NCBI RefSeq assembly: GCF_050920415.1
Contig: NZ_CP169309.1
DNA from: Escherichia coli
GTDB lineage: Bacteria > Pseudomonadota > Gammaproteobacteria > Enterobacterales > Enterobacteriaceae
Length of the DNA: 64,000 nucleotides
Reading direction: 5' to 3' (one strand)
Below, one piece after another: positions 21,105 to 30,618 of this stretch. A program made the position numbers and the translations under genes. Below the pieces are notes generated by a model, which saw only the letters and a program-made list of their open reading frames with translations, had not been told where the DNA came from and searched no databases. Every line of letters starts with the position of its first letter. Position 1 is the first letter of the stretch.

Positions 21105-22088
21105 GTGTTAAAAAAATATCTTCCCCTGCTGTTGCTCTGTACAGCACCCGCTTTCGCTAAACCCGTTCTGACTGTTTATACCTACGACTCCTTCGCCGCC
21201 GACTGGGGGCCAGGTCCGGTGGTGAAAAAAGCCTTTGAAGCCGACTGTAATTGCGAACTGAAACTGGTGGCGCTGGAAGATGGCGTTTCGCTTCTCAACC
21301 GTCTGCGGATGGAAGGCAAAAACAGTAAAGCCGATGTGGTGCTGGGGCTGGATAACAATCTGTTAGATGCCGCCAGCAAAACCGGGCTGTTTGCTAAAAG
21401 CGGTGTGGCAGCGGATGCCGTTAACGTTCCCGGCGGCTGGAATAATGACACTTTCGTCCCGTTTGATTACGGCTATTTCGCCTTCGTCTATGACAAGAAC
21501 AAACTGAAAAATCCGCCGCAAAGCCTGAAAGAATTGGTTGAAAGCGATCAAAACTGGCGGGTGATTTATCAGGATCCGCGCACCAGCACGCCGGGGCTGG
21601 GTCTGCTGTTGTGGATGCAAAAAGTCTATGGCGATGACGCCCCACAAGCCTGGCAGAAACTGGCGAAGAAAACGGTCACGGTCACCAAAGGCTGGAGCGA
21701 AGCCTACGGCCTGTTTTTAAAAGGCGAAAGCGATCTGGTACTGAGTTACACCACTTCTCCGGCTTATCACATTCTCGAAGAGAAGAAAGATAACTACGCC
21801 GCCGCGAACTTCAGCGAAGGTCACTATTTGCAAGTGGAAGTCGCCGCCCGCACCGCTGCCAGTAAACAGCCGGAGCTGGCGCAAAAATTCCTCCAGTTTA
21901 TGGTTTCTCCGGCTTTTCAGAATGCGATCCCAACCGGCAACTGGATGTATCCGGTGGCAAACGTCACGCTGCCTGCCGGTTTTGAAAAATTGACCAAACC
22001 GGCAACCACGCTGGAGTTCACGCCAGCCGAGGTGGCGGCACAACGTCAGGCATGGATTAGCGAATGGCAACGCGCCGTCAGCCGTTAA
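21105..22088 (+). CDS. thiB: Thiamine ABC transporter periplasmic binding protein ThiB (TbpA)
   Basis: Track ORF begins with TTG at 21093; start placed at GTG 21105 giving (M)LKKYLPLLLLCTAPAFA signal peptide; start uncertain. Confidence 0.9.
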   Translation: MLKKYLPLLLLCTAPAFAKPVLTVYTYDSFAADWGPGPVVKKAFEADCNCELKLVALEDGVSLLNRLRMEGKNSKADVVLGLDNNLLDAASKTGLFAKSGVAADAVNVPGGWNNDTFVPFDYGYFAFVYDKNKLKNPPQSLKELVESDQNWRVIYQDPRTSTPGLGLLLWMQKVYGDDAPQAWQKLAKKTVTVTKGWSEAYGLFLKGESDLVLSYTTSPAYHILEEKKDNYAAANFSEGHYLQVEVAARTAASKQPELAQKFLQFMVSPAFQNAIPTGNWMYPVANVTLPAGFEKLTKPATTLEFTPAEVAAQRQAWISEWQRAVSR

Positions 22089-29848: not shown

Positions 29849-30544
29849 ATGTTAGAAGATCTCAAACGTCAGGTTTTAGAAGCCAACCTGGCGCTGCCAA
29901 AACACAACCTGGTCACGCTGACCTGGGGCAACGTCAGCGCCGTTGATCGCGAGCGCGGCGTCCTGGTGATCAAACCTTCCGGCGTCGATTACAACGTTAT
30001 GACCGCTGACGATATGGTCGTGGTCAGCATCGAAACCGGTGAAGTGGTTGAAGGTACGAAAAAGCCCTCCTCCGACACGCCAACTCACCGGCTGCTCTAT
30101 CAGGCATTCCCGTCCATTGGCGGCATTGTGCATACGCACTCCCGCCACGCCACCATCTGGGCGCAGGCGGGCCAGTCAATTCCGGCAACCGGCACCACCC
30201 ACGCCGACTATTTCTACGGCACCATTCCCTGCACCCGCAAAATGACCGACGCAGAAATCAACGGCGAATATGAGTGGGAAACCGGTAACGTCATCGTTGA
30301 AACCTTCGAAAAACAGGGGATCGACGCAGCACAAATGCCCGGCGTTCTGGTCCATTCTCACGGCCCGTTTGCATGGGGCAAAAATGCCGAAGATGCGGTG
30401 CACAACGCCATCGTACTGGAAGAAGTCGCTTATATGGGGATTTTCTGCCGCCAGCTTGCTCCGCAGTTACCGGATATGCAGCAAACATTGCTGGATAAGC
30501 ACTATCTGCGTAAACATGGTGCGAAGGCATATTACGGGCAGTGA
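29849..30544 (+). CDS. araD: L-ribulose-5-phosphate 4-epimerase AraD
   Basis: 231-aa ORF, class II aldolase-family sequence. Confidence 0.96.
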
Positions 30545-30547
30545 TGA

Positions 30548-30563
30548 CTGTATAAAACCACAG
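30548..30563 (+). promoter_or_regulatory. LexA (SOS) box upstream of polB
   Basis: CTGTATAAAACCACAG matches the CTGT-N8-ACAG consensus. Confidence 0.8.
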
Positions 30564-30573
30564 CCAGTCAACC

Positions 30574-30606
30574 AAAACCAGGCTATACTCAAGCCTGGTT
30601 TTTTGA
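30574..30606 (+). terminator. GC stem-loop with T-tract (likely araD terminator) 13 nt upstream of the polB start
   Basis: aaaaccaggct-atactca-agcctggtttttt. Confidence 0.6.
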
Positions 30607-30618
30607 TGGAATTTCAGC

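What the first reader, a model, noticed from the sequence alone, without database searches (positions are those of the whole stretch)
30548..30618. LexA box followed by a strong hairpin within 70 bp upstream of the polB GTG start
A consensus SOS box (CTGTATAAAACCACAG, 30548..30563) overlaps the end of araD. It is followed by a GC stem-loop with a T-tract (30574..30606) that looks like the araD terminator. The polB GTG start is 13 nt later at 30619. If the SOS promoter sits at the LexA box, polB transcripts must read through or start inside this terminator-like structure.
Basis: partly seen in the sequence, partly recalled or inferred. Interest (0 to 1): 0.25.

Follow-up and report, generated by a model that had tools for sequence, protein, structure and literature searches.

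The report
polB SOS promoter inside araD terminator
The 74-base gap between araD and polB holds a LexA-repressed polB promoter built into the araBAD terminator hairpin, so polB transcripts start inside the hairpin and escape it; this layout is already known in E. coli.

Summary
The LexA box CTGTATAAAACCACAG is at 30548..30563. A stem-loop with a T-tract is at 30574..30604. The polB GTG is at 30619. One detail is wrong: the box does not overlap araD, because a second TGA (3 nt) separates it from the stop codon.

The hairpin loop carries the polB -10 hexamer (TATACT, 30584..30589). The weak -35 (30561..30566) overlaps the right end of the LexA box. Published genome-wide start-site mapping puts polB +1 at MG1655 65803, which is window 30596, inside the 3' arm. 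In Klebsiella the start falls at the equivalent place. polB mRNA therefore lacks the 5' arm and cannot form the terminator.

I compared 80 other species.
- LexA box and -10 sit exactly 20 nt apart in 38/38 loci (37 of those genomes plus the window) where araD is adjacent.
- A stem of at least 7 bp encloses the -10 in 37/38 of those loci.
- That falls to 4/15 where other genes separate araD from polB, and 1/28 where araD is absent.
- The box and the -10 persist in these Enterobacteriaceae loci even without the hairpin.

So the hairpin serves araD and the box plus -10 serve polB. This is a known E. coli locus. Interest is low.

The parts
29849..30544 (+). araD (L-ribulose-5-phosphate 4-epimerase), last gene of araBAD. 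Stop TGA at 30542..30544, followed by a second in-frame TGA at 30545..30547.
   Evidence: ORF list. RefSeq annotation of matching E. coli records.
30548..30563 (.). LexA operator (SOS box) CTGTATAAAACCACAG. It spans -48 to -33 relative to the polB start site.
   Evidence: Sequence. Identical in MG1655. CTG-N10-CAG is present in all 53 Enterobacteriaceae loci that have araD nearby. It lies 20 nt from the -10 in 38/38 adjacent loci and 13/15 loci with inserted genes. Mean column identity 0.90, against 0.50 for the flanks.
30561..30566 (+). Inferred weak -35 hexamer CAGCCA (3/6 match to TTGACA, 17-nt spacer). It overlaps the right half-site of the LexA box.
   Evidence: Inferred from the positions of the -10 and the mapped start site. 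Too weak to be reported by the consensus scan.
30574..30583 (+). 5' arm of the terminator hairpin (AAAACCAGGC). In the DNA it is also the promoter spacer.
   Evidence: Folding. Pair counts. Stem search across loci.
30584..30589 (+). polB -10 hexamer TATACT. It forms the first six bases of the hairpin loop (loop 30584..30592).
   Evidence: Most conserved element of the region, mean identity 0.96. The mapped start is 7 nt downstream. TATAAT or TATACT is also kept in loci that have lost the hairpin.
30593..30604 (+). 3' arm of the hairpin (GCCTGGTTTT, 30593..30602) and the T-run (30599..30604). Together they form the intrinsic terminator of araBAD.
   Evidence: Folding. 3' arm identity 0.91 where araD is adjacent. 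The arm is degraded where araD is not adjacent.
30596..30596 (+). polB transcription start site (+1), inside the 3' arm.
   Evidence: Kim et al. 2012, supplementary file 2: NC_000913 65803 minus strand, 5' UTR 23 nt, with matching upstream 51-mer. Coordinates mapped through the gap-free alignment. The Klebsiella start is at the equivalent place.
30596..30618 (+). polB 5' UTR of 23 nt (UGGUUUUUUGAUGGAAUUUCAGC). It cannot form the terminator hairpin.
   Evidence: The fold from +1 onward is no more stable than shuffles, z -0.05.
30619..32970 (+). polB (DNA polymerase II), GTG start, 783 aa.
   Evidence: tblastn gives 98.6% identity to the MG1655 locus.

Best explanation
The araD-polB gap is a compact dual-use element in which the araBAD terminator and the LexA-repressed polB promoter share the same DNA.

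**As a terminator.** Transcripts arriving from araBAD contain both arms of the hairpin (CCAGGC...GCCUGG, extended by A-U pairs) and the U-run. They form an intrinsic terminator and mostly end around 30599..30604.

**As a promoter.** The hairpin loop is the -10 hexamer (TATACT). The 5' arm is part of the 17-nt spacer. The weak -35 overlaps the right end of the LexA box. LexA bound at -48..-33 therefore blocks RNA polymerase binding. After DNA damage, LexA is cleaved and polymerase starts at 30596, inside the 3' arm. The resulting mRNA lacks the 5' arm and cannot terminate itself.

**Basis of each step.**
- Shown here: the positions of the elements, hairpin stability, conservation and covariation, and the dependence of the hairpin on araD being adjacent.
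- Taken from published data: the start sites in E. coli and Klebsiella.
- Inferred or recalled from the literature: LexA binding, damage induction of this promoter, and termination efficiency.
For: **Anatomy and stability.**

**Identity with the K-12 locus.** The window is collinear with MG1655 araD-polB with no indels in the gap. The substitutions between the araD stop and the polB start codon (30567, 30572, 30574, 30611) fall outside the box, the -10, the core stem and the T-run.

**Start sites.** E. coli polB starts at 65803(-), which is window 30596, 7 nt after the -10. K. pneumoniae polB starts at 69499(-), with upstream sequence ending ...CCAGGCTATAATCAGGCCTG, also inside the 3' arm.

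**Comparison of 81 loci (80 genomes plus the window).**
- LexA box to -10 spacing is exactly 20 nt in 38/38 araD-adjacent loci.
- A stem of at least 7 bp enclosing the -10 is present in 37/38 adjacent loci, 4/15 loci with genes inserted between araD and polB, and 1/28 loci without araD. Fisher test, adjacent versus inserted: p = 2e-7, not corrected for phylogeny.
- Within Citrobacter, all five adjacent loci have perfect stems. All four loci with an insertion carry a substitution in the 3' arm.

**Covariation.** In seven loci (four labelled Buttiauxella, one Cedecea, two labelled Enterobacter sp.) the whole stem is swapped (GTGGTC/GACCAC for CCAGGC/GCCTGG) while TATAAT stays in the loop.

**Loop pattern.** The six -10 positions are nearly invariant (0.96), whereas the other loop positions vary (0.69).

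**SOS membership.** polB is listed as a LexA-regulated SOS gene, and its cloned promoter responds to UV.
Against: - The published start sites rest on few reads (2 in E. coli, 4 in Klebsiella) from undamaged cells. No start-site data under SOS induction were available to me.
- The -35 is weak (3/6), and the promoter was not picked up by the consensus scan.
- No 3'-end data for araD were found. The one 3'-end data set that was searchable has no araD entry, probably because the cells were grown without arabinose. The other two papers tried held no searchable supplements.
- Some loci with co-directional inserted genes lack any hairpin (L028, L037), so a terminator is not always kept upstream of polB.
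- One araD-adjacent genome (Pluralibacter gergoviae, L025) has only a 4-bp stem.
- The comparative counts are not phylogenetically independent.
Confidence: 0.88

Rival explanations
1. The polB promoter uses the TATAAA inside the LexA box as its -10. Transcription would then start near 30563, upstream of the hairpin. The hairpin would act as a 5'-leader attenuator that polB transcripts must read through.
For: TATAAA (30551..30556) resembles a -10 and lies within the operator, as in some SOS promoters.
Against: - No start site was reported near MG1655 65834. The mapped starts in two species are 7-8 nt after the loop hexamer.
- No acceptable -35 lies upstream of TATAAA.
- The loop hexamer stays TATAAT or TATACT even where the hairpin has decayed. 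That points to selection on a -10, not on a leader structure.
Confidence: 0.04
2. The hairpin belongs to polB regulation, for example as an mRNA stabiliser, a protein-binding site or a DNA cruciform. Its position after araD would then be incidental.
For: The 5' arm (AACCAGG) is kept in many loci even after the 3' arm has decayed. The inverted repeat brackets the -10 exactly.
Against: - polB mRNA starts inside the 3' arm and cannot contain the stem.
- The 3' arm and T-run are lost where araD is no longer adjacent, while polB, its LexA box and its -10 persist.
- Erwiniaceae and Yersiniaceae polB promoters have no hairpin at all.
- Retention of the 5' arm is explained by its role as fixed-length promoter spacer and by common ancestry.
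Confidence: 0.04
3. The hairpin is only a partial terminator. Read-through from the arabinose-induced araBAD promoter would then be a physiologically meaningful second route of polB expression, making polB the conditional fifth gene of an araBAD-polB unit. This adds to the main explanation rather than replacing it.
For: - The 7-9 nt loop is longer than is usual for intrinsic terminators (from my own knowledge), because it must hold a 6-nt -10. The core stem is only -10.8 kcal/mol, so termination may be imperfect.
- From memory of Stringer et al. 2014 (J Bacteriol 196:660): read-through at the Rho-independent terminator downstream of araD raises polB expression with arabinose. One search confirms that the reference exists, but the text is not held.
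Against: - The stem and U-run are strongly conserved where araD is adjacent, which implies selection for termination.
- No read-through data could be examined here.
- The independent LexA-controlled promoter is conserved regardless of araD.
Confidence: 0.3
4. The juxtaposition is a chance co-occurrence of a LexA-like palindrome and an inverted repeat, with no function.
For: CTGT-N8-ACAG occurs 3 times in the window against 0.62 expected, so the bare pattern is not very rare.
Against: - Position and spacing are invariant across 53 species.
- The stem covaries.
- Folding z-scores are -4.3 to -5.7.
- Start sites are mapped.
Confidence: 0.01

Closest known systems
E. coli K-12 polB (dinA) promoter-operator and araBAD terminator (MG1655 65781..65854)
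   Same: - The same locus, collinear and without indels. LexA box, -10, stem core and T-run are identical.
- Same gene order araA-araD-polB-rapA.
- Start site 65803 from Kim et al. 2012.
- From memory: Iwasaki et al. 1991 (Mol Gen Genet 226:24) mapped the start, footprinted LexA over the -35 region, and noted a terminator-like structure overlapping the promoter.
   Different: There are four substitutions in non-functional positions of the gap, plus TGA instead of TAA as the araD stop. The window comes from a divergent E. coli lineage: one 100% match, others 90-97%.
recA-type SOS promoters, with the LexA box between or abutting the -35 and -10
   Same: A single CTG-N10-CAG operator represses by blocking polymerase binding. 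Erwiniaceae and Yersiniaceae polB promoters have this layout, with the box ending 2 nt before TATACT.
   Different: In the window and other Enterobacteriaceae the operator sits 20 nt upstream of the -10 and overlaps only the -35. The intervening spacer is used as the 5' arm of a terminator.
Canonical Rho-independent terminators of E. coli
   Same: A G+C-rich stem is followed directly by a run of six U, about 30 nt after the stop codon of the last gene of an operon. An upstream A-run mirrors the U-run.
   Different: The loop is 7-9 nt rather than the usual 3-5 (from my own knowledge). Its sequence is constrained as a -10 hexamer (identity 0.96). From memory (Stringer et al. 2014), termination is incomplete.

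Membership tests
LexA (SOS) operator, gammaproteobacterial type | Palindromic core CTG-N10-CAG with an A/T-rich centre | tested here: met
   CTGTATAAAACCACAG at 30548..30563. It matches 13/20 positions of TACTG(TA)5CAGTA, by direct count.
LexA (SOS) operator, gammaproteobacterial type | Overlaps the core promoter of the regulated gene | tested here: met
   The box spans -48..-33 relative to the mapped start and overlaps the inferred -35 at 30561..30566.
LexA (SOS) operator, gammaproteobacterial type | Conserved at the orthologous promoter in related species | tested here: met
   Present in all 53 Enterobacteriaceae loci with araD nearby, at a fixed 20-nt distance from the -10 in 51 of them. 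A one-mismatch variant is present in 17 of the 25 Erwiniaceae, Yersiniaceae and other non-Enterobacteriaceae loci.
LexA (SOS) operator, gammaproteobacterial type | LexA binding and DNA-damage induction of the gene | not testable with these tools
   Literature only. polB is listed as an SOS gene, and a polB promoter-GFP fusion responds to UV. The footprint (Iwasaki 1991) is recalled from memory.
Rho-independent (intrinsic) terminator | Stable G+C-rich stem-loop followed directly by a U-run | tested here: met
   Seven-pair core stem, -10.8 kcal/mol, followed by six U at 30599..30604. With the A-U extension, -15.3 kcal/mol and z -5.7.
Rho-independent (intrinsic) terminator | Lies just downstream of a co-directional gene, and is kept only while that gene is there | tested here: met
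   It begins 30 nt after the araD stop. The stem is kept in 37/38 adjacent loci, 4/15 with inserted genes and 1/28 without araD.
Rho-independent (intrinsic) terminator | Base pairing maintained by compensatory change | tested here: met
   Full stem swap in seven loci (Buttiauxella, Cedecea and two Enterobacter-labelled genomes). On alignment A2, 86.6% of cells are paired against 22-59% for slid controls, and 4 pairs show double changes. This is an underestimate because of a 1-nt register shift.
Rho-independent (intrinsic) terminator | Transcripts end at the U-run | not testable with these tools
   No araD 3' end in the one data set that was searchable; the other two papers tried held no searchable supplements. 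Partial termination is recalled from Stringer et al. 2014.
Sigma-70/sigma-S promoter | -10 hexamer about 7 nt upstream of a mapped start site | tested here: met
   TATACT at 30584..30589 and start at 30596. In Klebsiella, TATAAT with the start 8 nt downstream.
Sigma-70/sigma-S promoter | -35 hexamer at 16-18 nt spacing | tested here: inconclusive
   The best candidate, CAGCCA, matches 3/6 at a 17-nt spacing and is below the scan threshold. The C at -13 together with TATACT resembles sigma-S promoters. RpoS dependence of polB is reported in a review.

The most novel reading that the evidence does not exclude
The overlap may be a selected coupling device rather than simple economy of space, in two possible ways.

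1. **Coupling of arabinose to polB.** araBAD polymerases must run over the LexA operator and the polB -35 and -10 before terminating at polB +4..+9. Heavy arabinose-induced transcription could evict LexA or occlude the promoter. Conversely, bound LexA or a polymerase waiting at the polB promoter could act as a roadblock that shapes araD 3' ends. Sugar metabolism would then be linked to Pol II levels beyond simple read-through.
2. **Nucleotide sensing.** The terminator's T-run is the polB initially transcribed sequence (UGGUUUUUU). It could support UTP-sensitive reiterative transcription, as at codBA or pyrBI.
Probability: 0.1. Interest if true: 0.45.

Novelty: already known. Interest (0 to 1): 0.15.

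Why it matters
This is a textbook-scale example of two signals sharing one sequence. A terminator hairpin has a loop that serves as the next gene's -10 box. This explains how an SOS promoter can sit within 75 bases of a strongly inducible operon without self-terminating.

It is useful as an annotation rule: a promoter can start inside an upstream terminator, so a hairpin between operator and start codon need not be a leader.

The comparison across species adds a small new point. The hairpin decays when araD is uncoupled from polB, while the operator and -10 persist. The locus itself is long characterised in E. coli, so nothing here changes current understanding.

Tried and rejected
- **Consensus scans.** The promoter and terminator scan found neither element. 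The -35 is too weak. The stem extension into the T-run probably hid the terminator. I replaced it with direct folding and a custom stem search.
- **Free hairpin search.** Taking the best hairpin anywhere in the 100 nt upstream was too noisy to separate the locus classes. I replaced it with a search for stems that enclose the -10.
- **Rfam.** No family matches 30300..30900.
- **Original papers.** The text of Bonner 1990, Iwasaki 1990, Thomason 2015, Dapa 2017 and Stringer 2014 is not held. What I say about Iwasaki 1991 and Stringer 2014 is from memory.
- **Cappable-seq GTF.** Every entry shown was plus-strand and there was no hit near 658xx. The stored file is truncated, so minus-strand entries may have been lost. 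Uninformative.
- **3'-end data.** Dar & Sorek 2018 and Conway 2014 have no supplements held. Adams 2021 has no araD 3' end.
- **Neighbour orientation.** I tested whether hairpin retention in loci with inserted genes follows the orientation of the new upstream gene. It does not follow cleanly, so I make no claim.
- **Text searches.** Searches for 'polB promoter', the terminator sequence, and araD+polB+terminator returned only strain-construction papers.

Full report
**What is there**

The window is a divergent Escherichia coli chromosome segment. One RefSeq genome matches at 100% and the rest at 90-97%. It runs in the opposite orientation to MG1655. araD occupies 29849..30544 and polB occupies 30619..32970, with a GTG start and 783 aa. 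The 74-nt gap aligns with MG1655 65781..65854 without indels, so MG1655 coordinate = 96399 minus window coordinate.

The gap reads: TGA | CTGTATAAAACCACAG | CCAGTCAACC | AAAACCAGGC | TATACTCAA | GCCTGGTTTT | TTGATGGAATTTCAGC | GTG.

**Check of the observation**

- The LexA-type box is at 30548..30563, the inverted repeat at 30574..30602, the T-run at 30599..30604 and the GTG at 30619, as reported.
- The box does not overlap araD. The stop codon is 30542..30544 and a second in-frame TGA lies between it and the box.
- The box has the CTGT-N8-ACAG core but only 13/20 matches to the full consensus.
- That core occurs three times in the window against 0.62 expected, so the pattern alone is weak evidence.
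- The hairpin is far more stable than shuffles: -15.3 kcal/mol, z -5.7, and -10.8 kcal/mol for the G+C core.
- The simple terminator scan missed it, probably because A-T pairs extend the stem into the T-run.
- Rfam has nothing here.

**The key anatomical point**

The first six bases of the loop are TATACT (30584..30589), a 5/6 match to the -10 consensus. Seventeen bases upstream lies CAGCCA (30561..30566), a weak -35 that overlaps the CAG half-site of the LexA box. This predicts a start near 30596.

Kim et al. 2012 (PMC3415461, supplementary file 2) list a polB start at NC_000913 65803 on the minus strand. The 5' UTR is 23 nt, and the upstream 51-mer is GACTGTATAAAACCACAGCCAATCAAACGAAACCAGGCTATACTCAAGCCT. 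That position is window 30596, the T inside the 3' arm GCC-T-GG.

The same data set places the Klebsiella pneumoniae polB start at 69499(-). Its upstream sequence ends ...CCAGGCTATAATCAGGCCTG, again inside the 3' arm. Read counts are low (2 and 4), as expected for a LexA-repressed promoter in undamaged cells.

An mRNA starting at 30596 lacks the 5' arm. Its predicted fold is no better than shuffles, z -0.05.

**Comparative test**

A scan of one genome per species recovered 80 polB loci, from Escherichia to Yersinia and Serratia. Using tblastn with AraD and PolB, I sorted the 80 loci plus the window (81 in all) into three classes:

| Class | Loci (n) | Stem of at least 7 bp enclosing the -10 |
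|---|---|---|
| araD directly upstream (gap 74-352 nt) | 38 | 37 |
| araD upstream, 0.7-1.5 kb of other genes inserted | 15 | 4 |
| No araD nearby | 28 | 1 (A-T pairs only) |

- The Fisher test for adjacent versus inserted gives p = 2e-7. It is not corrected for shared ancestry.
- The LexA box and a TATAAT or TATACT hexamer are exactly 20 nt apart in 38/38 adjacent loci and 13/15 inserted loci.
- Within Citrobacter, all five adjacent loci have perfect 9-10 bp stems. All four loci with an insertion carry a substitution in the 3' arm (gtctgg, gactgg, gccggg, or a broken T-run).
- In Salmonella, Pseudocitrobacter, Phytobacter, Kluyvera and others, the 3' arm is unrecognisable while the box, the spacer and the -10 remain.
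- Seven loci (four labelled Buttiauxella, one Cedecea, two labelled Enterobacter sp.) have replaced the whole stem (AAGTGGTC / GACCACTT) while keeping TATAAT in the loop. That is multi-pair compensatory change.
- On alignment A2, 86.6% of cells pair, against 22-59% when the partner is slid. This is an underestimate because the swapped stem is shifted by one column.

Mean column identity in the adjacent class:

| Element | Identity |
|---|---|
| -10 hexamer | 0.96 |
| 3' arm | 0.91 |
| LexA box | 0.90 |
| 5' arm | 0.80 |
| Remaining loop bases | 0.69 |
| 5' UTR | 0.63 |
| Linker | 0.50 |

The pattern is what two overlapping signals would give. The box and -10 follow polB. The 3' arm and T-run follow araD.

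**Other lineages**

In Erwiniaceae and Yersiniaceae the gene upstream of polB is a divergent DedA/VTT-family gene, which I recall as yabI-like. There is no ara operon and no hairpin. The LexA box (CTGTATAAATAnnCAT) ends 2 nt before TATACT. This is a recA-like layout.

The Enterobacteriaceae layout, with the operator 20 nt further upstream and the spacer doubling as a terminator arm, therefore goes with the presence of araBAD next door. This is an inference.

**Mechanism**

- **Termination.** Transcripts from araBAD carry both arms and the U-run and terminate at about 30599..30605. This is inferred from the anatomy and conservation. No 3'-end data were available.
- **Repression.** LexA bound at -48..-33 occludes the -35. 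This is inferred from position. polB is an established SOS gene, and its cloned promoter is UV-inducible.
- **Induction.** After LexA cleavage, polymerase uses the loop hexamer as -10 and starts in the 3' arm. The start sites are published data.
- **Sigma factor.** The C at -13 plus TATACT resembles sigma-S promoters. This fits the reported RpoS requirement for full polB expression (review).
- **Leakiness.** From memory, Stringer et al. 2014 reported read-through at the terminator downstream of araD that raises polB with arabinose. One search confirms the reference but the text is not held. A 7-9 nt loop forced by the -10 could explain a leaky terminator.

**Comparison with what is known, and novelty**

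This is the well-studied polB (dinA) promoter-operator and araBAD terminator of E. coli. From memory, the overlap of promoter and terminator-like structure was already noted by Iwasaki et al. 1991. The window differs from K-12 only at non-functional positions. The finding is real and correctly read, but already known.

The one modest addition is the comparison showing that the hairpin decays when araD is uncoupled. Interest is low.

**Unresolved**

- Start-site data under SOS induction.
- Actual termination efficiency.
- Why Pluralibacter gergoviae (L025) has lost the stem although araD is adjacent.
- Whether araBAD transcription across the operator and promoter affects polB beyond read-through.

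Noticed in passing
L054-L081 (for example L054, L061, L069, L081), about 40-60 nt upstream of polB: In Erwiniaceae and Yersiniaceae the polB LexA box has a CAT right half-site (CTGTATAAATAnnCAT). It ends 2 nt before the -10, not 20 nt as in Enterobacteriaceae. This is a different operator-promoter layout for the same gene.
   Followed up: partly
L050 and L051, about -1025 to -125 relative to polB: In two unnamed Enterobacteriaceae, the gene inserted between araD and polB is excinuclease Cho (NF007833, E 4e-143). Cho is another SOS-regulon gene. It is co-directional with polB, so two damage-response genes sit in tandem.
   Followed up: partly
L013, L028, L037, L040, -680 to -51 relative to polB: A co-directional DUF218 gene (209 aa, PF02698) lies between araD and polB. 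Its ORF runs through the LexA box and stops just before the -10. In three of the four genomes there is no terminator hairpin, so this gene may be co-transcribed into polB.
   Followed up: partly
L004, L008-L012, about -1080 to -530 relative to polB: Salmonella enterica subsp. diarizonae and several Citrobacter species carry a DUF4751 gene on the opposite strand between araD and polB. About 500 nt upstream of the LexA box have no ORF of 90 aa or more.
   Followed up: no
L019, L024, L027, L030, L031, L032, L039, between araD and the LexA box: Klebsiella, Raoultella, Enterobacter and Leclercia have 50-280 extra bases between the araD stop and the LexA box. These include G+C-rich palindromic sequences that look like REP elements, for example ...gccggataagcgcagcgtcatccggc. 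The terminator hairpin is still kept downstream of them.
   Followed up: no
window 30453 (MG1655 65946): Kim et al. 2012 list a second weak start (2 reads) assigned to polB, inside araD and 166 nt upstream of the GTG. Transcripts from it would contain the full terminator.
   Followed up: no
window 30599..30604: The terminator's T-run is positions +4 to +9 of polB mRNA (UGGUUUUUU). From my own knowledge, U-runs this close to a start site support UTP-sensitive reiterative transcription at codBA, pyrBI and upp. Nothing here tests that for polB.
   Followed up: no
window 21129..21144 and 62490..62505: Two further CTGT-N8-ACAG matches (CTGTTGCTCTGTACAG and CTGTGACTTCCGACAG) lack the A/T-rich centre of LexA boxes. 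They are probably chance matches.
   Followed up: no
L025 (Pluralibacter gergoviae), -60 to -20 relative to polB: This is the only araD-adjacent genome where the hairpin is reduced to 4 bp (ccattcgggTTATACTcacttcctgttt). The LexA box and -10 are intact.
   Followed up: no
window 30542..30547: araD ends with tandem in-frame stop codons, TGA TGA. MG1655 has TAA TGA.
   Followed up: no
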